Below, in pieces: positions 1-34,288 of a stretch of DNA of 37,203 nt. The notes under the pieces are model-generated. The model was not told where the DNA came from, made no database searches, and saw only the letters and a program-made list of their open reading frames with translations. Position 1 is the stretch's first letter, and every line of letters begins with the position of its first letter. The translations under genes and the position numbers were made by a program. The stretch comes from Lacipirellulaceae bacterium (GTDB taxonomy: Bacteria > Planctomycetota > Planctomycetia > Pirellulales > Lacipirellulaceae): assembly GCA_036271295.1 (NCBI GenBank), contig DATBAY010000533.1:1-37203 (forward strand), in the 5' to 3' direction.

Positions 1-1364
1 AGCAGATGCAGCATCGTCGCTTGCAGATCATGAACGTGGACCGGGTTTTCGGTGATATTGTAGCTAAAGTCGTCGGTCGCACCATAAGTCATGCCGGGCC
101 GAACACCCGCGCCCGCCAGCCAAATCGAGAAGCACCGTGGGTGATGGTCGCGACCGTAGTTGGTGGCTGTTAGTGCGCCTTGCGAATAAACGGTGCGCCC
201 GAATTCGCCACCCCAGACGAGGAGCGTGTCATCGAGCAGGCCGCGTTGTTTAAGATCTTGAACGAGCGCCGCCGATGGTTGATCGGTAGCCGAGCACTGC
301 TTTGCGATGTTGACCGGCAATTCGTTGTGCTGATCCCAACCCATGTGGAAGAGCTGCACGAAGCGCACATCGCGTTCGATAAGCCGACGAGCGAGCAGGC
401 AATTGCGAGCATACGTACCAGGCTTGCGAACTTCGGGACCGTACATGTTGAGAATGTGCTCCGGTTCGCCGGAGATATCAGTCAGCTCGGGCACGGCGGC
501 CTGCATGCGAAACGCCAGCTCGTACTGCGAAATTCGTGTTTGGATTTCGGGATCACCGATGCTGGAAAAACTATCCTGATTGAGCGCCGAAAGGTCATCG
601 AGCATGTCGCGGCGCATCCCGCGATCGCACCCGGCCGGGTTCGCTAAATAGAGCACCGGGTCATTTCCGCCACGAAGCTTGACGCCCTGATACTGCGTAG
701 GCAAAAAGCCGCTTCCCCACAACCGGTCGTACAGCGGTTGATCGGCCGCGCGCGTGGGGTCTTTGGAAATCATCACCACGAATGCCGGCAAGTCTTCATT
801 CAGCTTGCCCAGGCCGTAGGCGACCCAAGCCCCCGCACTCGGCCGGCCAGCAAGCTGCGAACCCGTTTGAAAGAACGTGACCGCGGGATCGTGGTTGATC
901 GCCTCGGTGAACATCGAACGGACGATGCACAAATCATCGGCGATGCGGGCGGTGTGCGGAAGCAAATCTGAAATCCACGCACCTTGCTGACCGTGCTGGT
1001 GGAATGGAAAGATCGACGACGCCATCGGAAATGAAGACTGCCCCGAGGTCATCGTTGTGAGCCGCTGCCCCATGCGGACCGACGCCGGCAGCTCCTGGCC
1101 ACGCAAATCATTCAGCTTCGGCTTGTAATCAAGCGTTTCGAACTGGGACGGCGCTCCCGACTGAAACAAATACACGACCCGTTTGGCTTTGGGTTGAAAG
1201 TGAGGTTGCCGCGCCAGTTGGGCTGGTGCGGAAGTGCCCGGTGCAGACGCCGCCTTTGCCGGCACGCCGACAAGCGAACTCAGCGCGAGCCCGCCAAGAC
1301 CAGTGCTCGACCCTTTCAAAAAATGTCGCCGATTCAAAATCTGAGCTGCTTCAACGGCGTCCAT
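1..1364 (-). CDS. DUF1501 family protein (sulfatase/alkaline-phosphatase-like) with Tat-type signal; C-terminus cut by the window edge
   Basis: Absent from the ORF track because it runs off the window. Hand translation of the minus strand from the ATG at 1364 gives [30 protein letters not shown]... (twin-arginine RRHFLKG). The frame stays open to base 1 and ends ...[12 protein letters not shown]. It is colinear with the complete DUF1501 paralogs at 24062-25495 and 28774-30240 (for example ...HVHDLHATILHQLG). Confidence 0.9.
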
Positions 1365-1399: not shown

Positions 1400-4300
1400 T
1401 TAATCCTTCGAGATCGCCTCGTCCATATTCAGCAGTATACTGGCGACCGCCGTGTGGGCTGCTAAATCGCATGTATCAAGCGACTTGTTTCGCGGGGATT
1501 CCCCCTGACTAATAAACTGTTCCGCCGAAGCGGGCGATTGGCGATACCGGTCCAAGTAATTCTGCAGACTAGCCCGAAGCGTCGTGAGCTCGCTCGAAGT
1601 CGGCGTTCGGCTCGTGGCGAGGCGGAATGCAAACGAGAGCTGCGAATCTGCCGAATTACCGCCCTCGGTCAGCATTCGCTCGGCCAGCTTTCTCGCCGCC
1701 TCGGTGTACGTTACATCGTTCAACAGCGCGAGTGCCTGAAGCGGTGTATTGGTTCGCGCACGTTTGACTTGGCAAATCTCCCAACTTGGGGCATCAAACG
1801 TAGCCATCGAAGGATGCGGAACCGTTCGCTTTCGATACGTGTACAAACTACGGCGATAAAGATCGGCGCCGTGCCCTTGGGTGTAGTCGTCGTGAGCGCC
1901 GCCGGCGAGCTCTTCCCACAAACCGGCCGGTTGATAGGGCATGACGGACGGACCGCCGATCTTGTCAACCAGCAAGCCACTCACAGCGAGCGCATCATCG
2001 CGCAGAGCTTCAGCCGGCAGACGATATCGCGGCCCCCGCGCAAGCAATCGATTTTCCGGATCACGATGGTATTCCTCCGGCGTCGCTTCGGCGCGTTGCT
2101 GGTAAGTGTTGCTCAGCACGATCAGCCGCTGAATGTGCTGCAAATCCCATCCGGATTGAACTAGTTCGGTGGCGAGCCAATCCAACAGCTCGGGGTGCGA
2201 AGGTGGCTCCGACTGTGCGCCGAAATTGTCCGACGTTTTCACGAGCCCAACCCCGAAATGCTGCTGCCACAATCGGTTTACAATGACTCGCGCCGTGAGA
2301 GGGTTCTCGGGACTTACAAGCCACTGCGCAAGTCCCAGCCGATTGCGAGGTGCATCCACCGGCAGCGGAGGCAGGACCGCGGGCACGTCTGGTTGAACTT
2401 CGTGATCCTTTTCCGGGTGATCGTATTGGCCGCGATGCAGAACGTACGTTGGTCGCCGCTCCTTACGCTCCTCCATCACCATGGCCATGGGAATTGCGGC
2501 ATTGTATTTCGCGCGTTCCTCTTGAACCGTTTGTAAGGCGTGCTGAATTTCGCGGCCCTTCACAGCAAACGGGTCATCGGACACGGCCAGTAGCAACTTA
2601 TCGAGCTGGTCTAGCATCGTCTTGGCTAGCCCATCAGGTTTGATGCTTTTCAGTTCGCGACGCAACGATGCCTGGAACAATGATTGCGATTCTGTCGGGC
2701 TCAGCGTGTGTTGGAAAAGCGTCACCTCGGCTACGGCGGCATGCAGCGGGCTATCGGCCGAACGCTGGCCAATCCGGAACGGTTGATCGGTCGCAGTCGA
2801 GCCCTTGAGCTTGTCCGCTTCGACTTCGACATTTTGTTTTTCGCCATTCACATAGAGCGCGATGCCCGCGGCTTTGCCGGAGCCGTCGTAGGTCGCCACA
2901 ACGTGCGACCATTCGTCGGCCGGCAGCGGCCGCGCGGTGAGCACTTTCATCGCGTTCGACGGCCAATCGACGATAATGTGCATTCCGACTTTATGATCGG
3001 CGAAGAGCGTGAGGTCACAACCGCGCGATCGCCGGGCACTGTCCATCCTGGATAGGATCGTGCCGGCGCCCTTTGGCTTGACCCACACGGCCCAGCTAAA
3101 CGGTTTATCTGCTGCTGGGAAATCAATGCCGGCGTAATCCAAGTGCTGCTTGCCCTCAAAGACCGGTGAGTCGCCGAATAAATCTGCTTCCCACTTCGGC
3201 GCGACCGATTTAGCATCCACGGCGACGACGCCGTTCGTTACCGCTACGTGAGCTATCGTGTCCGTCACTTTTTGTAAATCGATTCGAACAGCTTCCCCCG
3301 GTTCGTTTTGCGGCCGCGATTTCAGGAAGGCGTCCAACCAAGGCTGACGGTGTTTTTCTATATCTGCGTTGTGCTCGGCGAGCTCCTTGTTCAGGCCGGC
3401 AATCTTCGCATCGAATTCGGCCAGCTTCTTTTCGTTCTCTGGGGTCTCTGCCTTTACGACCGGCGGCACATTTCCGCGCGTCTCGGTGTAAACGCCCTTC
3501 TCGTTCACATTCCCGAAAAATGCGAACAGCTGATAAAACTCCTTCTGCGAAATCGGATCGAACTTGTGGTCATGGCATCGTGCGCAACCCACGGTTAAAC
3601 CCAGGAAGACAGTCCCCGTCGTTTCGACTCGGTCGACGACATTCTCCACGAACCACTCGTCCTCAATCGAGCCGGCTTCGGTTACTGTCCGGTGATTGCG
3701 GTTGAATCCTGTCGCGATTTGCTGCGCGAGCGTGTGGTTCGGCAATAGATCGCCCGCAATCTGGTCGACGACGAAATCGTTGTAGCGCATGTGCTCGTTG
3801 AAAGCATTGATAACCCAATCTCGCCATGGCGACATATTGCGGGAAAAATCGTTCTGGTAGCCGTTCGAATCGGCGAACCGCGCGCCATCCAGCCAATCGG
3901 TCGCCATCCGTTCGCCGTAATGAGGCGAGTTCAACAATCGGTCGACGATTCTTTCGTAGGCGTCAGGGGCGTCATCGGCAAGAAAGGCGTCGATCTCCGG
4001 AATCGACGGCGGCAGACCGATCAAATCGAAGTACAGTCGGCGAATCAGTCGTTCCTTGGTAGCACGCGGGGCGGGCTCGGTTCCCTCTACTTCCAGCCGT
4101 GCGATCACGAAATTATCGATCGGGTTTTGAACCAGATCAGATCGCTTGACGCTCGGCACATCGGGCCGCACCGGGGCGACGAACGCCCAATGCTTTTCAT
4201 ACTTCGCCCCTTGTTCGATCCAGCGCTGCAGTAAAGTGCGCTCCGCGTCGGAAAGTACCTTCTCGCTATCCGGCGGCGGCATCATCTCATCGGAATCTTT

Positions 4301-4585
4301 CGACATGATCCGATGGATGAGTTCGCTATCCGCCGGCTTGCCAGGCACAATCGCCTTCGCACCGGAATCCAGCTCACTCACTGCGGCATCTGGCCGGTCG
4401 AGCCGCAAGCCGGCTTTGCGACTGGCAGAGTCGGGGCCGTGGCATTTAAAGCAGCGATCGGAGAGGATCGGTAGGATATCGTGCCGATAGCCGACTTTGG
4501 CTTCTTCGGCTGGCGCCAAGCGTGCGCAGAGCACGATACCCGCAAATGCAAGGACAACTAAACGTGGCCGAGAACCCACGGTCAT
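1400..4585 (-). CDS. Secreted PSCyt1 / DUF1549 / LamG-like / DUF1553 (PSD1) multidomain protein with two CXXCH motifs
   Basis: 1061-aa ORF with an N-terminal hydrophobic signal. CFKCH (4439-4453) sits in the planctomycete cytochrome-c context [16 protein letters not shown]. An internal CARCH (3572-3586) sits in [12 protein letters not shown] central LamG/concanavalin-like stretch lies at about 2666-3193 (...[12 protein letters not shown]...LYVNGEK...). The C-terminal part is DUF1553-like ([40 protein letters not shown]). The stop is 35 nt upstream of the DUF1501 ATG. Confidence 0.9.
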
Positions 4586-15929: not shown

Positions 15930-15961
15930 GCTTAAAGTTTAGGTCTCCATGGCGGCTTTGT

Positions 15962-15998
15962 CCAATAGTTCACAAAACGTGGACTATGGAACTATTGG
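15962..15998. promoter_or_regulatory. 10-bp perfect inverted repeat (CCAATAGTTC-N17-GAACTATTGG), candidate ArsR operator
   Basis: Read directly: left arm 15962-15971, right arm 15989-15998. It lies 33-69 nt upstream of the ArsR GTG (15929) in the 185-nt gap to the esterase gene. ArsR/SmtB repressors typically bind imperfect or perfect inverted repeats over their own promoter. Confidence 0.35.
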
Positions 15999-16114
15999 CC
16001 AGTATTAGCAAGCAGATTCCTAAAATTGGCCTGCTCCAGCCTAATTACCCCAACGAAATAAGTCACCCAGCGAAACCCCCCTCCGACCGCAGCTAAGGCA
16101 GGCGGGTAATCCCT

Positions 16115-17266: not shown

Positions 17267-17346
17267 TCGACCCAGTGTACCGCAATTCTGTTTACAATGT
17301 GGCTTTACGAGCGGTGATCCTAAACCTCGATAATTCAGCCTTTGGC

Positions 17347-18057: not shown

Positions 18058-18105
18058 TACCGCCGACTACGACGCAAGTCTTGTAATTTGCAGCGCGAGG
18101 TCCGA

Positions 18106-21100: not shown

Positions 21101-21444
21101 TCGGCGGTCAACGCAAAGCGGAAGAGATTCTCGAATCCATCGTGCTCCCCAACGCCAAGATCTGCGAAGGTTTTGATACGGCAGTCCTCCAACTCGATTC
21201 GGGAAAGGTCGTCACAGGCATCATTCGGCATGAAACCGCTTCGAAAATCGAACTCGTGGATGCCGCAGCGAAAACAGTCATCGTCGATCCATCGACGGTC
21301 GAAAGCCGAGTCAAAGGCAAGTCGGCCATGCCCGAGAATCTGATCGACCAAATGACGCAGCGCGAACTGCGCGATCTGGTGGCGTTTCTATCGCAGTTGA
21401 AAACCAGCGAACCGACCGCCACGTCGAATTCCGGCGCCAAGTGA
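18106..21444 (+). CDS. Secreted fusion protein: dehydrogenase-like beta-propeller + HEAT repeats + C-terminal c-type cytochrome domain (Pirellula/Verrucomicrobium type)
   Basis: The track ORF starts at TTG 18088. The ATG at 18106 gives MTLSKLSSAVLPLALACCFFSLLKA (signal). The N-terminal part (FTLKTVASEPNLANGVSFCFDPSGRIFVAE...DRDGDG...) matches the putative membrane-bound dehydrogenase domain family. HEAT-like repeats follow (HPNMRVRQATQERLVAIG, LEVRAQAARTLERA, ASPRVRSFAAISLGKLRD). The C-terminal domain has CRRCH (21040-21054) and a downstream KSAMP. Confidence 0.9.
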   Translation: MTLSKLSSAVLPLALACCFFSLLKADPTASPKPVISLEAELAAKAIQVPAGFTLKTVASEPNLANGVSFCFDPSGRIFVAETYRVGKGIEDDRSHMDWLDDDLACQTVADRRAYLIRHLGDKVHKFEEASEQVRLLEDRDGDGLYETSSIFSTGYKNIEDGTAAGVLWHNDRLLFTCIPSLWELRDRDGDGKAEERRALSTGYGVRTSFYGHDLHGLCKGPDSRIYFSIGDRGLNVQTPNGVIVNTNSGAVLRCQPDGSQLEIFATGLRNPQELAFNEFGDLFTVDNNSDSGDKARLVYIVEGMDAGWRMPYQYLSDRGPFNREKIWEPQNDEQPASIVPPVANITDGPSGLVHYPGTGLPKTYDGAFFVVDFRGAPATSGIREFYTEQQGSTYRLTKYKTFVSGVLASDCDFGPNGDFYILDWVEGWVGPGKGRIHRVTSEDPDAVKQRAEMQAAMRKVPSASVRDLIALLGHPNMRVRQATQERLVAIGEAATSSLKTLVANNDAPLFARIHAIWALGEVAENKPELFESIALLCDDKNLEVRAQAARTLERAAKSSEDARQHLGHSLIPLLADASPRVRSFAAISLGKLRDTHAATPLMQMAAKDGNDPVLRHAIARALSAVQSDADLAAAATGANDAERLVLVVALGKQKSPLVAKFLKDSSDRIVLEAARIIWDTPIPTASAQLAALIDQVPPTSDPLARRVLAANISGRSPDNLRAIIRFAYQPQMSDTLRDLAWNQVRTWAAPSSRDSVDGDWRPLEARPKTDVVNALREAMPKLTEVAATNPGGLILAAEFEIEDAYHPLLAVLANDAQPEATRATALSAFAKAPDSIAHQAIETGLKSPHESVRVAARKLWADRFPSEVVDQLQETLDSGVVHERQSALDTLAGLRTPPANAVVENWLERLERGECPAALQIEVLDAAAKSNDAHLVERQKQFVEKLAGEGPLKKFSGCLDGGDAERGRKIFDTNDKLACRRCHSTKPGETLVGPCLANVGGQRKAEEILESIVLPNAKICEGFDTAVLQLDSGKVVTGIIRHETASKIELVDAAAKTVIVDPSTVESRVKGKSAMPENLIDQMTQRELRDLVAFLSQLKTSEPTATSNSGAK

Positions 21445-23133: not shown

Positions 23134-24030
23134 ATGATAAAGGCCCTCCTGCCCCTTGCGATTACAATCACGGCCGTTTGGTGGAATGCCGCCTCGCTAG
23201 CCGATGAGAACGCCGGCGGTGTGGCGCGGGGCGCAGCCTTGCATCATTCCTACGGAACTTACGCCGGCGAACTACGCACCGCCAACGGCCACATGGACGA
23301 CGCCCGGCTCCTCACCGAACTCGGCGAATTGCACGCCAACACCTACAACTGGCTGATTTCCCGTGCCAACACCGACTGGGAAGATCTGCACAAATTTTTG
23401 CCGCTCGCAAAGACGCATAACATAAGAGTGTGGGTTACACTCTTACCGCCCTCCGAATCGGCCCCGAAAACCAAGCACAACTCCGAGCCATACCGACTGG
23501 ACTACGAACGCTGGGCGGCCGAACTCGCCGAACTCGCCTCTCGCGAGCCGGCCCTCGTCGCTTGGAGCATCGACGACTACGCCTACAACCTAAAAACGTT
23601 TACGCCCGATTACATGGAGAAAGTCATCGCCGCCCAACGTGCAAAGAATCCGAACTTCGCCTTCGTTCCGTGCGTCTACTACAAACAGGCAACTCCCACG
23701 TTTGCAGAACGCTACAAAAAGTTTTGTGACGGTATTCTGTTTCCCTATCGCAGCGAATCAACGACCGCTGGCTTCCAAGACGCCGAGTCCGTCGTTCCCG
23801 AAGTGAAATCACTGAAGCAGCTGTTTGGCGAAGACTTCCCCATCATCGTCGACATTTACGCGACCAAACATAGTCGCCTAGGTCCGTCCACGCCGGAGTA
23901 TGTCGAACAAGTAATGGAACTCGCCCAGCCAGTCGCAGATGGCATCCACATTTACCGCCATCAAAACAAGCTCGATCCCAACGAGCGGCCGAAGTTTGAC
24001 ATCATCCAACGCGTGATGAGCTCGTGGTAG
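23134..24030 (+). CDS. Hypothetical secreted protein, possibly TIM-barrel glycosidase-like
   Basis: 298-aa ORF with a signal peptide (MIKALLPLAITITAVWWNAASLA). The alternating pattern (IRVWVTLLPPSE, LVAWSIDDYAYN, FPIIVDIYA) suggests a beta/alpha barrel. I recognise no family, so the functional label is weak. Confidence 0.5.
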   Translation: MIKALLPLAITITAVWWNAASLADENAGGVARGAALHHSYGTYAGELRTANGHMDDARLLTELGELHANTYNWLISRANTDWEDLHKFLPLAKTHNIRVWVTLLPPSESAPKTKHNSEPYRLDYERWAAELAELASREPALVAWSIDDYAYNLKTFTPDYMEKVIAAQRAKNPNFAFVPCVYYKQATPTFAERYKKFCDGILFPYRSESTTAGFQDAESVVPEVKSLKQLFGEDFPIIVDIYATKHSRLGPSTPEYVEQVMELAQPVADGIHIYRHQNKLDPNERPKFDIIQRVMSSW

Positions 24031-24061: not shown

Positions 24062-25495
24062 CTACGCGATGATCTCTGTAACGACGCGCGCCGGCTCGAC
24101 GCCAATCAGCCGCTGGTCGAGTCCTTGAAACTTATAAGAGAATGTAAGCGGATCGAACCCAAGCTGGTGCAGGATCGTCGCATGAAGATCGTGCACATGC
24201 ACCCGATTCTTGGTGGCGTTAAATCCGAAATCGTCACTCTCACCAATGGTCACGCCCGGCTTGATGCCGCCACCAGCCAGCCACATCGTAAAACAGTTCG
24301 GGTGATGGTCGCGGCCATCGTTACCGCCCCCTTGGACCATCGGCGTGCGGCCAAACTCGCCGCCCCAAACGACCAGTGTTTCATCCAGAAGACCACGCTG
24401 CTTGAGATCTTTAATTAGCGCCGCGCACGCCCGATCGGTCGTGGCGCAATTTTCCTTGATGTCGTGCGTAAGATTGCCGTGCTGATCCCAAGCCTCGTGA
24501 AAAATCTCCACGCACCGCACGCCGCGCTCCACCAAACGCCGAGCCAACAAACACGTGGCCGCGAACGAAGGCTTTCCGGGCTCCGCACCGTACATTTTGA
24601 GAACGTGCTCGGGCTCGCGCGAAATATCAATCGCATCCGGGGCCTCGGCCTGCATGCGATACGCCATCTCGAACGAATTGATCCGCGTCGCAATCTCCGG
24701 ATCGCCCACCTCGGCCAAGTGCTGACGATTAAGCGCGTTTACAGTATTGAGCGAATCCCGCTGCAGCTCACGATCGACGCCAGCCGGATTCGATAAATAC
24801 AACACGGGGTCGCCGCTCGTCCGAAACGTTACGCCTTGGTAAACCGTCGGCAAGAACCCGCTGCCCCAATTCGAATTGCCGCCGCTAGGCCCCTTCTTAC
24901 CGGTGCTGAAGACCACAAACCCCGGCAAGTTCTGCGTTTCGCTGCCCAAACCATAGAGCGTCCACGCGCCGAGGCTCGGCTTGCCGAACTGCTGCGAGCC
25001 CGTGCTCATCAGCATTTGGCCAGGCGCGTGGTTGAACGCGTCCGTCACCATCGATTTTACGATCGCGATATCGTCCACCACTTCGCCCAGGTGCGGCAAC
25101 AGTTCGGAAAGCTCTGCACCGCATTGGCCGTGCCTGGCAAATTTGAACTTCGGCCCCAGCAGTTTCGAATTCGGGTTGATGAACGCGGCCCGATAACCTT
25201 TCAGTAATTCGGCCGGCGGCAACGTGCCGTCGAACTTCGCAAGCTGCGGCTTGTTGTCGAACAGTTCTAAATGGCTCGGAGCGCCGGCCATGAACAGGAA
25301 TATAACGCTCTTCGCGCGCTGCCGAATCGGCGACGGTTTCACTGCCAGCGGATCCGCCGCGGCCCGCGCTGCGCTGACTCCCGCCAGCTGCCCCAGCGCA
25401 ATCGCTCCCAAACCGACGCCACATTCCTTCAGGAACCAACGTCGTGCCAGCGCTTCTGGCCGGATGTTCGCGTAGAGATGATCTTGGCAGCTCAT
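24062..25495 (-). CDS. DUF1501 family protein with Tat-type signal
   Basis: The track ORF starts at TTG 25516. The ATG at 25495 gives MSCQDHLYANIRPEALARRWFLKECGVGLGAIALGQLAG (RR motif). The whole length is colinear with the other two DUF1501 copies (SVIFLFMAGAPSHLELFD, GGEFGRTP, DHHPNCF, HVHDLHATILHQLG). Confidence 0.9.
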   Translation of the reverse strand: MSCQDHLYANIRPEALARRWFLKECGVGLGAIALGQLAGVSAARAAADPLAVKPSPIRQRAKSVIFLFMAGAPSHLELFDNKPQLAKFDGTLPPAELLKGYRAAFINPNSKLLGPKFKFARHGQCGAELSELLPHLGEVVDDIAIVKSMVTDAFNHAPGQMLMSTGSQQFGKPSLGAWTLYGLGSETQNLPGFVVFSTGKKGPSGGNSNWGSGFLPTVYQGVTFRTSGDPVLYLSNPAGVDRELQRDSLNTVNALNRQHLAEVGDPEIATRINSFEMAYRMQAEAPDAIDISREPEHVLKMYGAEPGKPSFAATCLLARRLVERGVRCVEIFHEAWDQHGNLTHDIKENCATTDRACAALIKDLKQRGLLDETLVVWGGEFGRTPMVQGGGNDGRDHHPNCFTMWLAGGGIKPGVTIGESDDFGFNATKNRVHVHDLHATILHQLGFDPLTFSYKFQGLDQRLIGVEPARVVTEIIA

Positions 25496-25525
25496 GATCG
25501 GTCCATCTTCCCGCAACGATTGTTG

Positions 25526-28500
25526 TCACTCGTTCGTAATTGTCTCGTCCAAATTCAAAATCACACGCGCCACCGCCGTCCACGAAGCCAATTCGCCCGG
25601 CGAAACTCCGTTCGGCATTTTCATGGCAAGCTTCTGTTTACCCTGTTCACCATCGGCCAAAAGCGGCCACGGATCTTCACCAGAACTTGTGAATCGCTGC
25701 CGCTCTTGATTCAGAAAATCCTCAAGCACGCGCAGCTCCTGACCGTGTGGCTCGCGCGAAACGCAGCGCTTCATCGCAGCATCAATCCGATCCTCGTCCG
25801 TCGGCGCAGCATTTCGCAGAACCGTCAAAGTCAACGCTCGCGCACACTCGACGAAAATCGGCTCGTTCAGCGTCGTTAGCGCTTGCAACGGCGTATTGGA
25901 TCGCGCCCGACGAGCACAGGCGACCTCGCCCACCGGCGCATCGAAATTCTGCAGCATCGGATACGGCACGGATCGGAATCGGAACGTGTAAAGACCCCGA
26001 CGATAACGATCGGGCCCAGTTGCAACTTTCCAGGTCTTCGGTCCGTAGCTTGCCGGCGGTTTGAACAGGAATTCCGGAGCCGGCGGAAAAACACTCGGGC
26101 CGCCTATTTTGTCATCCAGCAAACTACTAGCCGAAAGCGCGACATCCCGCACAATCTCCGCGTCAACGCGGAATCGCGGGCCGCGCGCGAGTAAACGATT
26201 ATCGGGATCTTGCTCCAGCAGTTGTGGCGTAACTGCGCTCGATTGCTGATAAGTCGCCGATGTGACAATCAGGCGGTGAATATGCTTGAGGCTCCAATTG
26301 TGATCCATCAACTCGACGGCCAACCAATCGAGCAATTCCCGATTCGAAGGCGGATCGCCTTGCATCCCGAAATCTTCCGGCGTGGCGACCAATCCTTTGC
26401 CAAAATACGCCTGCCAAATGCGATTCACAATCGATCGCGCCGTCGTCGGTGAACGCCGATCGACCAGCCATTTCGCAAAATCTAGCCGAGTCGGAGGCTG
26501 ATCGCTCTTCGCCGACTTTTCGAGCGGATGCAGAAACGCCGGCACGCCGCGTTCCACTGCCTCGGCCGGTGCGAGAAAGTTCCCTCGCTCTAACCGATGC
26601 GTCGTTCGCATCTTCCCACGTTCGGTTAGAGTGAGCTGCGTCGTCCCCTGCGGATGGCTCTGCCACAGTGCCTCGATCCGTCGGTTCTGCTCTTCCCACT
26701 CAGGAACGGTTGTCCGCCAATACTCGAAGACCTTTTGCGTTTCCTCGGCCGTTCGCTGCTCAGGACCGCGATCCACAATCGCCCGCACGTCACTCGGAAG
26801 CGGGTCGGCAACCGCGTTGTCGGCCGACGTCACTGCAAATCGGAAACGCCCCAAATTATTCGTTTGGTTGTCGTCACTGTTCCAACCACCATGATCCTGC
26901 ACCAGCTTGAACGTAAGCCGCACACCTCCGGCCGACTCAATCGGCTTATCGAATTCGAACACAGCCTTGCGCGGCACGTTACTGCGTTCGGGACCAATGT
27001 TGATTCCCCAAGCCGTAAGATTGTTCCCATCCGTCGCAAACTCGATGGGCCCCGTCACTCGGCGCTTGCCGCTTCGATCTTCGAACGCTTTCTCTAACTC
27101 GCGTTCCGGTGGATTCACATCCGCAGTGGCTTTCGCAATTTGAAGATTACGCTTTTTCTCGGGATGATCGAGCGGCGCCGCCTCGACATTAAACTCCGTC
27201 AACGCGCACGTCCCGAAGATCGACCGCCCCGGCCCGCCATGAGGCAGGCTCGGATCATTCATCAACTCCAGCCGCACCGCAGAAACGCGCGGCAACTTCG
27301 TCTCGCAAGTAAACTCCGTCGAAAATTTTGTCGGCGCATAACCGGCCGCCAAAATCGAACCGTCGTCCAACACATAATGCTTTTGATCGCCGGATGCTTC
27401 TTCCGGTGGACTGACGACCGTCCAGGTCGGCTGATTCTTGCGGACCGTCTTCTCCCACTCCGCCATGCGCTGCTGCCAGTCAGGACTGTCCGCTTGAAGC
27501 TGATCCTCGATCCGCCGAATGACATCCCCAGTCGCCTGCCATTCGCTTTGCTGCTCAGCAGTGTAGACGCTCGTCTGCGACTCATAGCAGTTATTGAGGA
27601 ATGCAAACATCTGGTAGTACTCGGTCTGCGTCAGCGGATCGTACTTGTGGGTATGACACTGCGCGCACTGAATCGTGATCCCCAAAACACCCTTGCCGAT
27701 CGCGTCCATCCGGTCGTACATCGCTTCCATTCGGAACTGCTCAGGATCAATGCCGCCCTCTTCATTGATCATGGAATTCCGCAGAAAGCCCGTCGCGACC
27801 TTGTCGTCCTGCGTCGCGTGCGGCAACAAGTCACCCGCGATCTGGTCGATAACGAATTTGTCGTACGGCAAATCCTGATTCAGCGCATTGATCACCCAAT
27901 CGCGATACATCCATACGAAGCGTGGCTTGTCCTTCTCAAAACCATCGGAGTCGGCATAGCGAGCGACGTCCAACCATACCCGGCCCCAACGCTCACCAAA
28001 ATGTGGCGACGCCAGCAACCGCTCGACCGCATCCTCGTAACCGTTCCCACTCGCATGCGATTCGAATTCTTTAAGCTCATCCAGCGTCGGCGGCAAACCA
28101 ACGATGTCCAAAGACAACCGCCGAATAAGCGTCGAAGTTGCCGCCCGCGGCGAGGGCTCGAGCCCCTCCTTCTCAAGCTTCGCAAGTACGAACGCATCGA
28201 TCGGATTGCGGACCCAGCCCGAATTCTTAACCGCGGGCACCGCCGGCCGCTGCGGCGCAACGTACGCCCAATGCGGCTCGTACTTCGCGCCATTCTCGAC
28301 CCACGTTCGCAGCGTTTTGATTTGCTCCGGCCGCAGCGTCTTTCCCGAGTCCTGCGGCGGCATCCGCTCATCCGGATCGTCGCTCGTAATCCGCTTAACT
28401 AACTCACTGTCGCCCGGGTGATCCGCATCGATGACAGCTTCAGCGCCGTGCATCTTCCCCACGCTTTTCCAAACATCCAAGCGTAAGTCCGCTTCGCGAT

Positions 28501-28681
28501 CCTTTGGATCCGGACCATGGCAACGGAAGCAATTGTTAGAAAGAATCGGCCGCACGTCGCGATTGAAATCGACGGACGCCGCCGGCTCAGCCGCCACAAT
28601 TACGCTGACGTTCCAAATGGCCGTTAGCAATGCGACTACAACCAGGCAAAATATGCGAAAGTAAATCATCCGCCGCTGCAT
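25526..28681 (-). CDS. Secreted PSCyt1 / DUF1549 / unassigned central module / DUF1553 (PSD1) protein with two CXXCH motifs
   Basis: 1051-aa ORF with an N-terminal hydrophobic signal. CFRCH is at 28517-28531 ([16 protein letters not shown]). Internal CAQCH is at 27653-27667 ([11 protein letters not shown]). The central beta-rich module is at about 26822-27424 ([32 protein letters not shown]). The C-terminal part is DUF1553-like ([40 protein letters not shown]). Confidence 0.9.
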   Translation of the reverse strand: [1051 protein letters not shown]

Positions 28682-28773
28682 GCTCGATTCGATGCGAACA
28701 ATTGACCGTACTGCATTATAGTCGCGATCCCGAATGCATCCGAACGATTGGGGGTTTGCCGCCTCGCCTAACG

Positions 28774-30240
28774 TTACACGATCAAATCCATCACCGGCTG
28801 GCCTTTTCCGTCCTTTGTCACGTAAAAAGGCCGCCGCTCTACATCAAACGAAGTCTTGGGGCTGATTCCCATCAGGTGCATGATTGTCGCATGCATGTCT
28901 TCGAGTGACACTGGATTTTTTGTCACCAGGCACGGTCGTTCAACAGCCGTCTCGCCATAGAGGAATCCGCGCTTCGTCCCGCCGCCAAACATCAACACCG
29001 ACGCCGATCCCGTGAAATGCCGATGCAACCCGTAGTGAATCGGCTCCTTTAAAACGTCCGTCTTTGCACGCGACTGATCCTTCGCCGTGCTTCCCGGAAC
29101 ACCTTCAATCATCATGTCGCGACTGAATTCGCTTGCCAGAACCACCAGCGTGCGATCCAACAAGCCGCGATCTTCCAGATCGTGAATCAGCTGTGCCACC
29201 GGGCGATCGACATCCCGCTTCATTTGCTCCGCCGTCGCGTGACCATTCTCATGCGTGTCCCAATGCACGAACGGAATATACTCCGTCGTCACCTCGACAT
29301 ACCGCACGCCCGATTCGACCAACCGCCGCGCCAGCAAGCACCCGCGGCCAAAGTCGCTGGTACCGTACTTGTCGGCCGCTTCCCTCTTTTCCAACGACAG
29401 ATCGAACGCCGCCTTTTCCTTCGAGCTCAAGAGCCGATGCGCCGAATCAATCGACCGCAACATCGACTCCTGCTGATAATCACTCGCGTACCGCGTCTGC
29501 GGGCTCTCCTTGACCATTCGCTCAAACATTCGGTAGCGATTCTCAAAGCGGCCAGCATTCATTCCCTTCGGCGGACGAACGGCGAGCATCGCATCTTCCG
29601 CCACCGGCAAATTGAATGGCCCATATTCGGAACCAAAGAACCCGCCTGTCGTGAACGACTTCAGTTCTTCCGACTCACCATTCCCTTCCAGCCGCTGCCC
29701 AATGTTGATAAACGGCGGCATCACTGGGTTGAGCGGCCCCAACACCCGCGCCATCCAAGCGCCAATGTGCGGCGCCGCAACCGTTTGCGGCGGAACGTAA
29801 CCGGTATGCCAATGATATTGATGCCGTGAATGCAGAATGTGCCCCAGATCCGGCAGCACGTGCGAGCGAATGAGCGTTCCGCGATCCATGACACTCGCGA
29901 TATTCTCGAGCCCCTGACTAATCTTGATGTTGTCGACCGCCGTATCGATCGCTGGGAAAGTGCTCATCACCTTCTCGACCGGCAATCCCACTTCAAAAGG
30001 CTGGTAGCGCTTCGGGTCGAACGTCTCGGGCGCCGCCATGCCTCCCGCCATCCACAGCAAGATGCACGAATCCGCTTTCGCGATCGGGTGCTCAATCTTT
30101 TCGCCAACCGGGTCAGCCAACAGCGGTCGCGGCTCGCCCGCCATCATCGCCGCGGCGCTGGCCGCCGCCATTGCTCGCAAAAAATCGCGCCTTGTGCTCG
30201 CCGCGCCGGTCCGTGTCGTCGATTGAGTTGAGTGTGTCAT
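28774..30240 (-). CDS. DUF1501 family protein with Tat-type signal
   Basis: 488-aa ORF. MTHSTQSTTRTGAASTRRDFLRAMAAASAAAMMAG is a twin-arginine signal. It is colinear with the other DUF1501 copies (ILLWMAGGMAAPETFD, ASEFSRD, LEDMHATIMHLMGI). A GGAG lies 7 nt upstream of the ATG, inside the 26-nt gap to the upstream gene. Confidence 0.9.
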   Translation of the reverse strand: MTHSTQSTTRTGAASTRRDFLRAMAAASAAAMMAGEPRPLLADPVGEKIEHPIAKADSCILLWMAGGMAAPETFDPKRYQPFEVGLPVEKVMSTFPAIDTAVDNIKISQGLENIASVMDRGTLIRSHVLPDLGHILHSRHQYHWHTGYVPPQTVAAPHIGAWMARVLGPLNPVMPPFINIGQRLEGNGESEELKSFTTGGFFGSEYGPFNLPVAEDAMLAVRPPKGMNAGRFENRYRMFERMVKESPQTRYASDYQQESMLRSIDSAHRLLSSKEKAAFDLSLEKREAADKYGTSDFGRGCLLARRLVESGVRYVEVTTEYIPFVHWDTHENGHATAEQMKRDVDRPVAQLIHDLEDRGLLDRTLVVLASEFSRDMMIEGVPGSTAKDQSRAKTDVLKEPIHYGLHRHFTGSASVLMFGGGTKRGFLYGETAVERPCLVTKNPVSLEDMHATIMHLMGISPKTSFDVERRPFYVTKDGKGQPVMDLIV

Positions 30241-30266
30241 ATAATAGCTCCGCTTTCACATTTCTT

Positions 30267-32201
30267 TCAGCGTATGATTTGATACTCGGGCAGCATGATG
30301 ATCACCCAGAGCAAATCCTCAACCCCTTGAGCCGACGCCGGCCTACCAATGAGTTCGACAGCGTCCTTCCGCTCTGCGGCAGTAGGCAGTCGCGACAGCG
30401 CCGCTTCATAAAGTCCATCGACGACCGAAGCACCGTCATCTCCGGCAAATTCTTTGAGAACCGCCGGTGCGCCACGATCAAGCGTCTTCGCAAGCAGCGC
30501 ACTGTTGGATAGATCCAACGCTTCGAGCGTCGTCAACATCGAAGGTCGGTCCGAAACAACCTGCTCGCGATTCGGCCGCCCCAGCGACCGCATCAAGGGA
30601 TCGCACGCCACGAGCGCTGCCCGATACGATGTGCGTCCCGGTTTTTCATCCACCGTGAGAAAAGCACCCACACTCTTATGCGGTTTCGACGGCCCCGTGT
30701 TCGTGAGCTGCCAAAGCGCATCGGTAAATTCCTCTGCCGTCATTCGCTTGGCGAGCGGCCCCGCGTAAACGAATTTTTCCCCCGTCGGCTGGGAATTGAG
30801 CGCTAGCGACTCCGATTGATACGCGTTCGACGTCGCAATCAATCGGATCGTCTTCTTTAAGTCGAAACCATGATCGCTCAAATCGACGGCCAGATAATCC
30901 AACAAATCAGTACTCCAGGGCGCCGTCTGCATTGCGTCAACCGGATACACGATCCCACGCCCCATCAAACGATGCCAAATACGATTCACAATCGTCCGCG
31001 TAAACCGACCGTTCTCGTGATCGGTCATTAACTTCCCCAGCTGCTTTAACCGCTCGTCCTTCGGCGCAGCAGGATCGATCTGGCCCAGCTCTGGGAATAA
31101 CCACGCTGCTTGCGCCATCTTTCCCGTCGGTTTATCACAGCGATTAATTTCGAGCGGGCCATCGGCATAAATCGCCGCCAGACCGTAAGTCTCCGATAAC
31201 TTCCATCGATCGATGAAACTGTCGTGACACGACGCACACTTCATGTTCAGCCCGAGGAACACTTGCGACACATTCTGGGCAAACTGAACTTCCTGCTTCT
31301 GACTCGCATTAACGTTCCCGCGCCATTTGATGCCACGAATAAACCCCGCCGATTCCGGCGCAGGCGCAATTAACTCCCGCGCGAACTCATCATAGGGCTT
31401 ATTATTCAACAACGAGTTGTATAACCAACTGCTAATTTGCGTGCGCCCGCCATCGATATAGCCGGTCCCTTGATAATCGTTCCGCAGCAAATCATTCCAA
31501 AACGACAGCCAGTGCTCGGCATACGCCTGATTGTTCGCGAGCAATGCATCAACGACCTGCTCACGTTTGTCAGGATCTTGGCTACTGAGAAAAGCGTGCA
31601 GCTGCTCGCTCGTCGGCAGCAACCCGACAAGGTCCAAATAAACACGCCGCAGAAACGCCGCGTCACCAAGAGCAGCCGGTCGCTGGACATTATGCTCCTT
31701 CAAATAAGCATCCAGAATGCGATCAATAGGATTCGCCCGCCCCTCACTAACCGCGGGCAACTCCGGCCGCCGCGGTTTAAGCGGTGGTTCGTAGTCCATC
31801 GCCGAAAATGTGAATCCCGCATCCCACGGTGCCCCAGCGTCGATCCATTCTCGCAGCGTTGTGACGTCGTCCGCACTCAGCGGAGGCTTGTCTTTCGGCA
31901 TCCGCTCATCTTTGTCCTCGGAAGTAACAAGATCGATGAGACGCGAGTCCCCCGCATGTCCAGCCGAAACCGCCCCGCCATCGAGCAGCGACTCACGCGA
32001 ATTCAGTGAGAAATCCCCCTCGTGCCTCCGCCCGCCATGACATTCAACACAATGCTGCCGCAATATCGGTACAACGCGATGAGCAAAATCGAATTCGGCG
32101 CCAACCGCCACATCGGCGAAGAATAGCCCTGAGAACGCAACGCCGCAGCCAAGGATTGCCGACCCCAACAGCGAGAAGCGATAATAAAAGTCAGCCCGCA
32201 T
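30267..32201 (-). CDS. Secreted PSCyt / DUF1549 / DUF1553 protein, short form without a central insert, two CXXCH motifs
   Basis: 644-aa ORF with an N-terminal hydrophobic segment. CVECH is at 32037-32051 (ILRQHCVECHGG). Internal CASCH is at 31224-31238 (CASCHDSFIDRW). The C-terminal part is DUF1553-like (RIWHRLMGRGIV, SLGRPNREQVVSDRPSMLTTLEALDLSN). Confidence 0.9.
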   Translation of the reverse strand: MRADFYYRFSLLGSAILGCGVAFSGLFFADVAVGAEFDFAHRVVPILRQHCVECHGGRRHEGDFSLNSRESLLDGGAVSAGHAGDSRLIDLVTSEDKDERMPKDKPPLSADDVTTLREWIDAGAPWDAGFTFSAMDYEPPLKPRRPELPAVSEGRANPIDRILDAYLKEHNVQRPAALGDAAFLRRVYLDLVGLLPTSEQLHAFLSSQDPDKREQVVDALLANNQAYAEHWLSFWNDLLRNDYQGTGYIDGGRTQISSWLYNSLLNNKPYDEFARELIAPAPESAGFIRGIKWRGNVNASQKQEVQFAQNVSQVFLGLNMKCASCHDSFIDRWKLSETYGLAAIYADGPLEINRCDKPTGKMAQAAWLFPELGQIDPAAPKDERLKQLGKLMTDHENGRFTRTIVNRIWHRLMGRGIVYPVDAMQTAPWSTDLLDYLAVDLSDHGFDLKKTIRLIATSNAYQSESLALNSQPTGEKFVYAGPLAKRMTAEEFTDALWQLTNTGPSKPHKSVGAFLTVDEKPGRTSYRAALVACDPLMRSLGRPNREQVVSDRPSMLTTLEALDLSNSALLAKTLDRGAPAVLKEFAGDDGASVVDGLYEAALSRLPTAAERKDAVELIGRPASAQGVEDLLWVIIMLPEYQIIR

Positions 32202-32236
32202 GCCTTTCCCGCCTGGTTACCGTGTAAACGTTTATT

Positions 32237-32809
32237 ATGCTCCTGCCGAAACTACGCGGCAACCAAGTCAAGTTGGCAAAAAACGTCATTAGAAATGACG
32301 ACCTCGTGACAAAGACGCCCTCCCAAGCTTCGAAAAGCCGTCCAACTATCACGATCGAAGTCCGTCGCGAAGATATCCTTTCCCCTACCGCGCAGCTTCT
32401 AATCCACTCGCTGAATTCCGAGCTTGAATCCCGGTATCCCGAAGAAGGTGCAAACTTCTTCCGCTTAGATCCCGACGAAGTCGCCGCAGGCCGCGGTGGT
32501 TTTTTCGTCGCCTACGCGGATGGCCATCCCGTCGGCTGCGGAGCGATCCGCTGGATTGACTCGGACGCTGCCGAAATCAAACGCATGTATGTCGCCCGCG
32601 GTAATCGTGGCGGCGGCATCGGCGGAAAGATTTTGGCCGAGCTCGAAGCGGAAGCCGCCCGCTTAGGCATCCGACGCATCGTGCTAGAAACCGGCCCCCG
32701 CCAGCCGGAAGCAATCGCGATCTACAAGCGTGCCGGCTTCGCCGAGATCCCACTCTTCGGCGAATACGTCGATCCGCGATATAGCCTCTGCATGGCCAAA
32801 AACGTGTAA
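32237..32809 (+). CDS. GNAT family N-acetyltransferase
   Basis: 190-aa ORF. The acetyl-CoA motif A is MYVARGNRGGGIGGKILAELEAEA, followed by IVLETGPRQPEAIAIYKRAGF. The real start may be the in-frame GTG at 32306 (VTKTPSQ...), since GNAT cores usually begin near ITIEVRRED. Confidence 0.85.
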   Translation: MLLPKLRGNQVKLAKNVIRNDDLVTKTPSQASKSRPTITIEVRREDILSPTAQLLIHSLNSELESRYPEEGANFFRLDPDEVAAGRGGFFVAYADGHPVGCGAIRWIDSDAAEIKRMYVARGNRGGGIGGKILAELEAEAARLGIRRIVLETGPRQPEAIAIYKRAGFAEIPLFGEYVDPRYSLCMAKNV

Positions 32810-34199: not shown

Positions 34200-34288
34200 G
34201 GTTTAGCCCACGCTGAGTGGCAATTCCAACCCGGCCCCCGCTGGTGTACCATGCAATTACGGGCATTTTGCCAAATCCGGGCGCTGCT

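What the first reader, a model, noticed from the sequence alone, without database searches (positions are those of the whole stretch)
24062..32201. Two back-to-back copies of a two-gene cassette: di-CXXCH DUF1549/DUF1553 protein followed by a Tat-exported DUF1501 protein
Seen: four co-directional minus-strand genes are packed with gaps of 26 nt (30241-30266), 92 nt (28682-28773) and 30 nt (25496-25525). The order is large protein, DUF1501, large protein, DUF1501. Each large protein has a Sec-type N-terminus and two CXXCH motifs. Each DUF1501 protein has a twin-arginine motif (RRDFLRAM, RRWFLKEC). The 92-nt gap carries a perfect TATAAT on the coding strand (28720-28715), 33 nt before the ATG, so each pair may also have its own promoter. 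Established: PSCyt1, DUF1549 (PSCyt2), DUF1553 (PSD1) and DUF1501 are strongly expanded in Planctomycetota and Verrucomicrobiota, and DUF1501 belongs to the alkaline-phosphatase/sulfatase-like fold. To my knowledge no biochemical function has been shown for the pair. Inference: the strict order, tight spacing and different export routes (Sec plus periplasmic heme attachment versus Tat export of a folded, possibly metal-loaded enzyme) suggest an obligate two-component periplasmic machine. One possibility is a heme-bearing substrate-recognition or redox subunit working with a hydrolase. This is my best candidate for an undescribed system in the window.
Basis: partly seen in the sequence, partly recalled or inferred. 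Interest (0 to 1): 0.7.

Follow-up and report, generated by a model that had tools for sequence, protein, structure and literature searches.

The report
Known planctomycete cytochrome–DUF1501 gene pairs
The four genes are real, but they are two anciently diverged members of a cytochrome-plus-DUF1501 gene module first described in planctomycetes and verrucomicrobia in 2012, and its biochemical function is still unknown.

Summary
Four co-directional minus-strand genes run A1 (PSCyt1-PSCyt2-PSD1, 644 aa), B1 (Tat-signal DUF1501), A2 (same domains plus a beta-sandwich insert, 1051 aa), B2 (DUF1501). The gaps, CXXCH motifs, RR motifs and TATAAT are as stated.

- The pairing is not undescribed. Kamneva et al. 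2012 (PMC3542564) reported the DUF1501 + PSCyt1/PSCyt2/PSD1 module and the same Tat-plus-cytochrome inference. I found no published function.
- The two pairs are not copies. They share 28-30% protein identity and belong to separate, deeply conserved ortholog groups.

New here:
- The order A1-B1-A2-B2 recurs in five other Pirellulales contigs.
- B1 is 67-91% identical in the 80 best of at least 582 related stretches found in species-representative genomes of Planctomycetota and Verrucomicrobiota. It carries invariant His-rich motifs.
- A1 sits directly upstream in 57 of 75 testable loci.
- A directly precedes B 58 times, against 5.6 ± 2.2 when gene order is shuffled.
- The pair also occurs, intact, on plasmids of Gammaproteobacteria and Bacteroidota.
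- DUF1800→DUF1501 pairs in other phyla have the same order.
- The DUF1501 proteins keep a His/Asp/Glu cluster but lack the sulfatase nucleophile motif.

Most likely these are two-subunit periplasmic metalloenzymes with a haem partner. That is inferred, not shown.

The parts
30267..32201 (-). A1: Sec-type N-terminus, then PSCyt1 (res 51-104), PSCyt2/DUF1549 (158-346) and PSD1/DUF1553 (387-617). This is the short form with no insert.
   Evidence: Orthologs lie upstream of B1 in 57 of 75 loci.
32037..32051 (-). A1 first CXXCH (CVECH), the haem-attachment motif of the class-I-like cytochrome c domain. The conserved RMP Met is at 31893-31907.
   Evidence: Kept in 56 of 56 A1 orthologs. The PSCyt1 profile matches FoxE at E = 3.9e-4.
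31224..31238 (-). A1 second CXXCH (CASCH), at the end of PSCyt2. The motif KCASCHDSF is invariant in orthologs.
   Evidence: C/C/H are invariant across 20 diverse A proteins.
28774..30240 (-). B1: Tat-signal DUF1501 protein of an ultra-conserved subfamily.
   Evidence: 67-91% identity in the 80 best loci, out of at least 582 related stretches found in species-representative genomes.
30178..30192 (-). B1 twin-arginine motif RRDFL.
29803..29841 (-). B1 His-rich motif HILHSRHQYHWHT, specific to the subfamily. A second motif, HYGLHRHF, lies at 29014-29037.
   Evidence: Invariant or nearly so in 83 sequences.
28682..28773 (-). B1-A2 intergenic gap with a perfect TATAAT at 28720-28715. It is a candidate internal promoter.
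   Evidence: TATAAT also in the same gap in L001 and L004. The generic promoter scan is not above shuffles, and the gap sequence is not alignable between loci.
25526..28681 (-). A2: the long form. Cytochrome c domain, helical PSCyt2, coiled coil, beta-sandwich insert, helical PSD1.
   Evidence: AlphaFold model with pLDDT 77 and pTM 0.70.
28517..28531 (-). A2 first CXXCH (CFRCH). The Met of DERMPP lies at 28355-28375.
   Evidence: (C51, C54, H55, M107 and P108 invariant).
27653..27667 (-). A2 second CXXCH (CAQCH).
26828..27421 (-). A2 beta-sandwich insert (res 421-618) with no Pfam match. It resembles a carbohydrate-binding module or lectin only weakly.
   Evidence: Model. Foldseek hits to CBM27, CBM29 and ConA-type lectins have E about 0.07-0.1.
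24062..25495 (-). B2: Tat-signal DUF1501 protein of the canonical PVC type.
   Evidence: The top 120 database clusters are 77-94% identical.
25430..25444 (-). B2 twin-arginine motif RRWFL.
24302..24490 (-). B2 conserved core motifs WDQH (24479-24490), GEFGR (24347-24361) and GRDHH (24302-24316). This is the candidate metal site.
   Evidence: H156, D337, H339, E380, R383 and H397 are invariant or 33/34 in 34 diverse DUF1501 proteins. The GEFGR Glu aligns with the sulfatase SD[HN]G metal Asp.
1400..4585 (-). A3: a third PSCyt1-PSCyt2-Laminin_G_3-PSD1 protein in the window.
1..1364 (-). B3: a third DUF1501 gene, 35 nt downstream of A3 and truncated by the window edge. It carries an RRHFL motif.

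Best explanation
Each A-B pair most likely encodes a two-subunit enzyme of the periplasm.

B (DUF1501) would be the catalytic subunit. It has an alkaline-phosphatase/sulfatase-superfamily scaffold and is exported folded by the Tat pathway. I propose it carries a metal centre built from the universally conserved residues H156, D337, H339, E380, R383 and H397 (B2 numbering).

A would be exported by Sec and receive c-type haem at one or both conserved CXXCH motifs. Its large helical PSCyt2/PSD1 body, plus a variable beta-sandwich in long forms, would dock B and hold the substrate. The N-terminal His/Met cytochrome c domain would pass electrons to or from B's metal site.

The four genes are two anciently separated paralogous pairs. 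A1-B1 is a core pair conserved across Planctomycetota and Verrucomicrobiota. A2-B2 is a Pirellulales-type pair. In this lineage they are kept together as one unit, probably transcribed from a promoter upstream of A1, with an optional second promoter before A2.

Shown: domain content, motifs, conservation, gene order and superfamily membership. Inferred: complex formation, haem and metal loading, redox coupling, and the substrate, which is unknown and possibly derived from glycans.
For: - Domain architecture and export signals.
- A directly precedes B 58 times against 5.6 ± 2.2 when shuffled.
- The pair stays intact after transfer to Catenovulum (gap 6 nt), Chondrinema (gap 1 nt) and the Singulisphaera plasmid, which carries A-B-A-B.
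- The A1-B1-A2-B2 order recurs in L001, L002, L004, L005 and L006, with different flanks in L001, L002 and L004.
- B1 is 67-91% identical across two phyla, and A1 lies upstream in 57 of 75 loci.
- Both CXXCH motifs are kept in 56 of 56 A1 orthologs and in all 20 diverse A proteins. The Met-Pro of the RMPP motif is also invariant.
- PSCyt1 resembles the FoxE and hydrazine-synthase haem domains.
- DUF1501 matches sulfatases at the C-terminal core (hhalign probability 95.5%; PDB profile hits). Foldseek hits go only to LtaS, sulfatases and YejM.
- A conserved His/Asp/Glu/Arg set is present in 34 diverse DUF1501 proteins.
- No terminator-like site falls in the intergenic gaps.
- TATAAT lies in the B1-A2 gap in 3 of 6 loci.
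- DUF1800→DUF1501 pairs in Ensifer, Thermus, Rhizobium and Chondrinema have the same partner-first order.
Against: - No interaction was tested.
- The B2 model is poor (pLDDT 57), and its active-site loops are the least confident parts. The metal site therefore rests on conservation alone.
- B1 lacks an adjacent A gene in about 24% of loci, mostly Verrucomicrobiaceae and Prosthecobacter.
- No invariant second axial ligand was found for the second CXXCH.
- No neighbouring gene family is consistently linked that could point to a substrate. Sulfatases occur in 11 of 80 loci and GFO/IDH/MocA oxidoreductases in 8 of 80, and both families are expanded in these phyla anyway.
- To my knowledge, redox chemistry is unknown for this fold.
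Confidence: 0.4

Rival explanations
1. B is an ordinary non-redox hydrolase of the sulfatase, phosphatase or phosphodiesterase type. A only targets it or binds its substrate, like a carbohydrate-binding subunit. The haems would be structural or act as redox sensors.
For: - Superfamily membership.
- A3 has a Laminin_G_3 domain, and A2 has a beta-sandwich weakly resembling a carbohydrate-binding module.
- Glycoside hydrolases and sulfatases lie nearby in Catenovulum and in several loci.
- To my own knowledge, the Tat-exported phosphatases PhoD and PhoX show that Tat export does not imply redox chemistry.
Against: - The sulfatase Asp-Asp and CxPxR motifs are absent.
- No residue is conserved at the canonical nucleophile position.
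- The His or Asn of the SD[HN]G motif is replaced by Phe.
- The cytochrome c domain with its Met ligand is invariant across all A proteins, which would be costly for a purely structural role.
Confidence: 0.25
2. A and B are independent periplasmic proteins that are merely co-regulated. A would be a stand-alone electron-transfer cytochrome, and B an unrelated Tat substrate. No complex would form.
For: - B1 occurs without an adjacent A gene in about 18 of 75 loci.
- One A gene in L001 has no B gene downstream.
- A and B use separate export routes.
Against: - The order and orientation are strict (58 against 5.6).
- Gaps are 1-30 nt.
- The pair is retained after horizontal transfer into other phyla.
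- The parallel DUF1800→DUF1501 pairing is hard to explain by co-regulation alone.
Confidence: 0.15
3. B is a catalytically dead binding protein. The A-B pair would then be a periplasmic sensor or capture device, for example feeding ECF sigma-factor signalling or uptake, rather than an enzyme.
For: - There is no canonical nucleophile.
- An ECF-type sigma factor and a heavy-metal sensor lie next to the Ensifer DUF1800-DUF1501 pair.
- A sigma factor lies near the Singulisphaera pairs.
- An ECF sigma factor was suggested as regulator of a PSD1 protein in R. baltica (PMC2754498).
Against: - The polar His/Asp/Glu/Arg cluster is invariant across distant DUF1501 proteins, which is typical of a working metal site.
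- B1 is 67-91% identical across two phyla.
- Regulator genes are not consistently adjacent.
Confidence: 0.1

Closest known systems
DUF1501 + PSCyt1/PSCyt2/PSD1 conserved gene module of Planctomycetes, Verrucomicrobia and Lentisphaerae (Kamneva et al. 2012, PMC3542564)
   Same: The two protein types, domain order, twin-arginine and signal peptides are the same. So are the optional LamG-type domain and the taxa. The published inference of a membrane-targeted, electron-transport-related system of unknown function also matches.
   Different: Nothing essential differs. New here are the split into a near-universal A1-B1 ortholog pair and a Pirellulales A2-B2 pair, the conserved four-gene order, the active-site residue analysis and the A2 structure model.
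DUF1800→DUF1501 two-gene pairs of Proteobacteria, Deinococcota and Bacteroidota (noted in PMC5122149)
   Same: A Tat-signal DUF1501 gene lies immediately downstream of a larger, mostly helical partner gene with a gap of 2-52 nt. The DUF1501 core residues are shared.
   Different: DUF1800 has no CXXCH and no cytochrome domain. Homology between DUF1800 and PSCyt2/PSD1 was not demonstrated: hhalign probability is at most 2.4%, and the score of 25.1 compares with decoys at 16.3 ± 3.0, maximum 23.7. DUF1501 proteins partnered with DUF1800 keep GGxDGL and RSHF motifs that the PVC type has replaced.
Alkaline-phosphatase superfamily enzymes (S1 sulfatases, LtaS/YejM, NPP)
   Same: The core fold is shared, as is the C-terminal strand-loop motif carrying a metal-binding carboxylate.
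   Different: There is no Asp-Asp after strand 1, no CxPxR or Thr/Ser nucleophile motif, and Phe replaces the His/Asn ligand. Export is by Tat, and the protein has an obligate-looking partner gene.
Class-I-like c-type cytochrome domains (FoxE of Rhodobacter ferrooxidans, PDB 5MAB; haem domain of the hydrazine synthase alpha subunit, 5C2V)
   Same: The N-terminal CXXCH and downstream RMPP Met motif are shared. Profile matches have E = 3.9e-4 and 0.023.
   Different: Here the domain is fused to about 500-900 residues of helical PSCyt2/PSD1 that have no counterpart among solved structures.

Membership tests
PVC DUF1501/PSCyt-PSD1 module (Kamneva 2012) | DUF1501 protein, often with a twin-arginine signal | tested here: met
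   B1 2e-74 and B2 2e-159 to PF07394. RRDFL and RRWFL motifs are present, and B1 passes TIGR01409.
PVC DUF1501/PSCyt-PSD1 module (Kamneva 2012) | Adjacent co-directional protein with PSCyt1/PSCyt2/PSD1 architecture | tested here: met
   A1, A2 and A3 all show this domain order, and each is followed by a DUF1501 gene after 26-35 nt.
PVC DUF1501/PSCyt-PSD1 module (Kamneva 2012) | Conserved adjacency across Planctomycetes and Verrucomicrobia | tested here: met
   58 observed against 5.6 ± 2.2 shuffled in 80 loci from both phyla.
c-type cytochrome (PSCyt1 domain) | CXXCH haem-attachment motif plus a distal Met ligand | tested here: met
   C51, C54, H55 and M107-P108 are invariant. The profile matches FoxE at E = 3.9e-4.
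c-type cytochrome (PSCyt1 and PSCyt2 motifs) | Covalently bound haem in the mature protein | not testable with these tools
   This needs haem staining, a pyridine haemochrome assay or mass spectrometry. No invariant distal ligand was found for the second CXXCH.
Alkaline-phosphatase / sulfatase superfamily | Shared alpha/beta core fold | tested here: inconclusive
   All significant Foldseek hits are to LtaS, sulfatases and YejM, but TM-scores are only 0.3-0.4 and the model has pLDDT 57. Sequence-profile support is good for the C-terminal half only (hhalign probability 95.5%).
S1 sulfatases | Asp-Asp after strand 1 and a C/S-x-P-x-R nucleophile motif | tested here: not met
   B proteins have MAGAPSH or MAGGMAAPE after strand 1 and no CxPxR. 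No residue is conserved 4-5 positions before the invariant His156.
Tat substrates | S/T-R-R-x-F-L-K-type motif followed by a hydrophobic stretch at the N-terminus | tested here: met
   R18 and R19 are invariant in 34 of 34 DUF1501 proteins. TIGR01409 scores B1 at 18.0 against a cut-off of 16.7. Export itself was not tested.
DUF1800-DUF1501 module | Partner protein belongs to DUF1800 (PF08811) | tested here: not met
   A1 and A2 give no PF08811 hit even at E up to 10. Profile-profile comparison is not significant. Distant homology is not excluded.
Recent tandem duplication | High DNA or protein identity between the two cassettes | tested here: not met
   Protein identity is 28-30%. Only short coding-motif DNA matches were found.

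The most novel reading that the evidence does not exclude
The A-B pairs could be redox-coupled periplasmic enzymes. In this reading, an alkaline-phosphatase-fold subunit that has lost the canonical nucleophile works through a His-rich metal centre. Electrons would reach or leave it through the partner's c-type haem. To my knowledge, that chemistry is unknown for this fold. The A1-B1 pair, with B1 about 70% identical between Planctomycetota and Verrucomicrobiota, would be a near-universal housekeeping version. The A proteins would be haem-decorated descendants of DUF1800. That would unite the PVC module with the widespread DUF1800-DUF1501 pairs as one ancient two-component system.
Probability: 0.15. 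Interest if true: 0.75.

Novelty: new member of a known kind. Interest (0 to 1): 0.35.

Why it matters
PSCyt/PSD1 and DUF1501 genes occur in dozens of copies in many planctomycete and verrucomicrobial genomes; each of the PSCyt2 and PSD1 domains is represented 41 times in R. baltica. No experiment has yet touched their function. The present window adds no new kind of system. The comparative work does single out one ortholog pair, A1-B1, that is nearly invariant across two phyla and has distinctive His-rich motifs. That pair is a far better first target for genetics and biochemistry than a random paralog. If the pair proved to be a redox-coupled enzyme on an alkaline-phosphatase scaffold, it would explain a large block of unassigned genes in abundant aquatic and soil bacteria.

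Tried and rejected
- **Recent tandem duplication:** rejected. Protein identity is 28-30% and there are no DNA repeats.
- **Solved-structure relatives by sequence:** none for B2. For A2, only the cytochrome c domain matches.
- **Fold search with the A2 model:** no credible match for the helical PSCyt2/PSD1 parts. The beta-sandwich gives only weak hits to carbohydrate-binding modules and lectins.
- **B2 model:** too poor (pLDDT 57) to read active-site geometry.
- **Homology of PSCyt2/PSD1 to DUF1800:** not demonstrated. Pfam gives no hit at E up to 10. hhalign with richer profiles finds only a 29-53-residue segment at probability 1-2.4%. Its score of 25.1 is just above 30 column-shuffled decoys, which reach 23.7.
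- **Conserved third gene near A1-B1 as a functional clue:** none. The most frequent neighbours are sulfatases (11 of 80 loci) and GFO/IDH/MocA oxidoreductases (8 of 80).
- **Alternative upstream partners where A1 is missing:** the upstream genes are unrelated (RNase R, DUF1571, a GntR-type regulator, an NPP-type phosphodiesterase, a WD40 giant protein) or have no Pfam match.
- **Riboswitch or other RNA family:** none in the window.
- **Generic sigma-70 promoter and terminator scans:** not above shuffles.
- **B1-A2 intergenic region:** does not align between loci.
- **Literature search for a function of DUF1501, DUF1553, DUF1549, PSCyt or DUF1800:** nothing biochemical.
- **Cluster look-up for named orthologs:** uninformative.

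Full report
**Observation.**

The four minus-strand ORFs are present as described:

| Gene | Coordinates | Length |
|---|---|---|
| A1 | 30267-32201 | 644 aa |
| B1 | 28774-30240 | 488 aa |
| A2 | 25526-28681 | 1051 aa |
| B2 | 24062-25495 | 477 aa |

- Database gene calls agree for B2. For A2 they start four codons later.
- Pfam gives PSCyt1, then PSCyt2 (DUF1549), then PSD1 (DUF1553) for both A proteins, and DUF1501 for both B proteins.
- Each A protein has exactly two CXXCH motifs. Each B protein has an RRxFL motif near its N-terminus. B1 passes the curated Tat-signal model.
- The TATAAT lies at 28720-28715.
- The window holds a third pair that was not in the finding: A3 at 1400-4585, with a Laminin_G_3 insert, and B3 at 1-1364, cut by the window edge.

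**The two pairs are not copies.**

- A1 and A2 are 30% identical. B1 and B2 are 28% identical.
- Repeats at the DNA level are limited to short coding motifs.
- A1 is a minimal form. A2 has about 365 extra residues between PSCyt2 and PSD1.
- Each gene belongs to its own tightly conserved ortholog group. The 120 best database clusters are 77-94% identical for B2 and 62-84% for A2.

**Conservation of the arrangement.**

- Contigs carrying B2 orthologs show the same order, A1-B1-A2-B2, in L001, L002 and L004, with different flanking genes. The order recurs in L005 and L006. All five are Pirellulales-type contigs.
It gave 582 confirmed relatives.
- The 80 best are 67-91% identical to B1. They come from Pirellulales, Gemmatales, Planctomycetaceae, Isosphaeraceae and Phycisphaeraceae. 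They also come from the verrucomicrobial groups Prosthecobacter, Luteolibacter, Akkermansiaceae, Chthoniobacteraceae, Opitutia and Limisphaerales.
- Against 1.84 billion representatives clustered at 50% identity, only about five full-length relatives score 45-57% identity. Everything else is much more distant or fragmentary. B1 is therefore one narrow, very conserved branch of the family.
- An A1-type gene lies directly upstream of B1 in 57 of 75 loci that have enough flank (56 counted automatically plus L078, which was mis-scored).
- The exceptions are mainly Verrucomicrobiaceae and Prosthecobacter. There the upstream genes are unrelated or have no Pfam match.
- Over all 80 loci, A immediately precedes B on the same strand 58 times. 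Shuffled gene order gives 5.6 ± 2.2, with a maximum of 13 in 2000 shuffles.
- The pair also occurs, still adjacent, on plasmids of Catenovulum (Gammaproteobacteria) and Chondrinema (Bacteroidota). A third is a Singulisphaera plasmid that carries A-B-A-B.

**Literature.**

- Kamneva et al. 2012 (PMC3542564) described exactly this module. It comprises DUF1501 proteins, often with twin-arginine signals, next to PSCyt1/PSCyt2/PSD1 proteins. Some of those carry Laminin_G_3 or F5/8 type C domains.
[quoted passage not shown] - He et al. 2017 noted that PSCyt2 genes sit next to a family of unknown genes, and suggested a link with carbohydrate use.
- Full-text searches for the DUF, Pfam and domain names found no biochemical characterisation up to 2026.
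- The 2025 Pfam and 2026 NCBIfam copies still give no function.

**What the A proteins look like.**

- The AlphaFold model of A2 has pLDDT 77 and pTM 0.70. It shows, in order:
  - an N-terminal hydrophobic helix;
  - a small cytochrome c domain (about residues 39-130);
  - an all-helical PSCyt2 domain ending in the second CXXCH;
  - a coiled-coil segment;
  - a beta-sandwich (421-618);
  - an all-helical PSD1 domain.
- A profile of the family matches the dihaem iron oxidase FoxE (E = 3.9e-4) and the haem domain of the hydrazine synthase alpha subunit. Both matches cover only the PSCyt1 region, including the RMPP segment whose Met is the likely distal ligand.
- C51, C54, H55 and M107-P108, and the C-x-x-C-H of the second motif, are invariant in the alignments that include all three window proteins. 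They are also kept in 56 of 56 A1 orthologs.
- The helical domains have no counterpart among solved structures. The beta-sandwich gives only weak hits to carbohydrate-binding modules and lectins.

**What the B proteins look like.**

- The B2 model is poor (pLDDT 57), and its active-site loops are the weakest parts. Even so, all significant fold hits are to alkaline-phosphatase-superfamily enzymes: LtaS, sulfatases and YejM.
- Profile-profile comparison with sulfatases taken from the fetched loci aligns the C-terminal half at 95.5% probability. It places the Glu of GEFGR on the metal-binding Asp of the sulfatase SD[HN]G motif. The neighbouring His or Asn ligand is Phe in DUF1501.
- In 34 diverse DUF1501 proteins, including six partnered with DUF1800, these residues are invariant or 33/34: R18, R19, G71, H156, D337, H339, E380, R383 and H397.
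- The sulfatase Asp-Asp and CxPxR motifs are absent, and nothing is conserved at the expected nucleophile position.
- The PVC-type proteins also replace the generic GGxDGL and RSHF motifs by GxPSxLE..FDxKP and xNH.
- B1 has, in addition, the invariant motifs HSRHQYHWHTGYVPP and HYGLHRHF.
- A metal site is therefore likely, but classical covalent catalysis of the sulfatase or phosphatase type is not supported.

**Relation to DUF1800.**

- Distant DUF1501 genes on Ensifer, Thermus, Rhizobium, Neorhizobium and Chondrinema replicons each lie directly downstream of a DUF1800 gene. This pairing was already noted in PMC5122149.
- The partner-first order is the same as in the PVC module.
- Homology between DUF1800 and PSCyt2/PSD1 could not be shown. 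There is no Pfam hit.
- hhalign recovers only one short segment, LLDxLAxxFxxxGxDLKxLxRxIxxS against VxxLAxxFxxTxGDLxxVYxALxxS, at 1-2.4% probability.
- Its score of 25.1 compares with 16.3 ± 3.0 (maximum 23.7) for column-shuffled decoys. This remains a lead, not a result.

**Transcription.**

- No terminator-like site falls in the three gaps. The generic promoter scan finds no more sites than in shuffled sequence.
- A perfect TATAAT occurs only three times in the whole window on both strands. Yet it is present in the B1-A2 gap of the window, L001 and L004, at 45, 45 and 86 nt before the A2 start. It is absent in L002, L005 and L006, where the gaps are longer.
- The gap sequences do not align between loci.
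- No Rfam family matches anywhere in the window.

**Interpretation.**

- The most economical reading is a two-subunit periplasmic enzyme. B is a Tat-exported metal-dependent catalytic subunit. A is a Sec-exported, haem-bearing partner that binds substrate and relays electrons.
- A1-B1 would be a core pair and A2-B2 a lineage-specific second pair, kept in one operon-like unit.
- What is shown: architecture, motifs, conservation and gene order. What is inferred: the complex, the cofactors, the redox coupling and the substrate.
- Main weaknesses:
  - no interaction test was possible;
  - the B model is poor;
  - B1 is orphaned in about a quarter of loci;
  - no genomic neighbour is informative.
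- Rival readings are listed with their tests. They are a plain hydrolase with a targeting subunit, independent co-regulated proteins, and a non-catalytic sensor or capture pair.

**Verdict.**

The finding is real and well observed, but it is a new instance of a gene module described in 2012, not an undescribed system. Its function remains an open question. The useful additions here are three. A1-B1 is identified as an almost invariant pair across two phyla. The canonical sulfatase-type catalytic motifs are shown to be missing. The gene order parallels that of the DUF1800-DUF1501 pairs.

Noticed in passing
window 1400-4585 (-) and 1-1364 (-): A third pair of the same module lies here. A3 is a PSCyt1-PSCyt2-Laminin_G_3-PSD1 protein of 1061 aa. 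A DUF1501 gene with an RRHFL motif follows 35 nt downstream and runs off the left edge of the window.
   Followed up: partly
window 28715-28720; L001 and L004 B1-A2 gaps: A perfect TATAAT occurs only 3 times in the 37-kb window on both strands. Yet it lies in the B1-A2 intergenic gap in 3 of 6 syntenic loci, at 45, 45 and 86 nt before the A2 start. The gaps themselves do not align.
   Followed up: partly
L089 3073-5600; L093 2705-5318; L088 1000-4202; L090-L092: DUF1800→DUF1501 pairs with the same partner-first order occur in Ensifer, Chondrinema, Thermus (DUF1800 split by an IS982 element), Rhizobium and Neorhizobium. Chondrinema carries both DUF1800- and DUF1553-partnered DUF1501 genes on its plasmids.
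   Followed up: partly
L038, L060, L062, L064, L069-L071, L082 (Prosthecobacter / Verrucomicrobiaceae): The ultra-conserved B1 ortholog has no adjacent PSCyt/PSD1 gene here. In L082 and related Prosthecobacter loci a thioredoxin-like (Redoxin/AhpC-TSA) gene and a Peptidase_S15 gene follow it. Whether A1 is encoded elsewhere in these genomes is unknown.
   Followed up: partly
L085 (Catenovulum adriaticum plasmid pCadTS8_1) 8698-15871: The DUF1553-DUF1501 pair sits in a gammaproteobacterial megaplasmid among GH43, GH115 and GH98 genes. A hypothetical gene and a further 'c-type cytochrome domain-containing protein' follow it. This suggests transfer of the module together with polysaccharide-degradation genes.
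   Followed up: no
window 18088-21444 (+): An 1118-aa protein combines DUF7133, a glucose/sorbosone-dehydrogenase-like beta-propeller, HEAT repeats and a weak C-terminal cytochrome c match. The same gene, next to a transglutaminase-like gene, recurs in L004, so synteny extends beyond the four genes.
   Followed up: no
window 23134-24030 (+): A 298-aa ORF lies between the transglutaminase-like gene and B2. It has a hydrophobic N-terminus and no Pfam match. In L004 this position is occupied by a sulfatase gene instead.
   Followed up: no
window 32201-32237: Only 35 nt separate the A1 start codon from the ATG of the divergent GNAT acetyltransferase ORF (32237-32809). The GNAT domain begins at residue 69. 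The real GNAT start may therefore be further downstream, or the two promoters overlap coding sequence.
   Followed up: no
window 5266-17410 and 34217-36154: Surrounding genes include a DUF5009 protein, an S15 X-Pro dipeptidyl peptidase, a GH113 with a dockerin domain, an AcrB/HlyD-type efflux pair, an esterase, and a sigma-54 activator with FHA and GAF domains. None of these is conserved next to the module in other genomes.
   Followed up: partly
A1 orthologs in L010, L012, L014, L018, L023 and others: About 20 A1 orthologs are 800-880 aa rather than about 640 aa. Their N-termini are normal, and they have no insert at the two junctions checked. The extra 170-240 residues therefore lie elsewhere, probably within or after PSD1. 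This was not examined.
   Followed up: no
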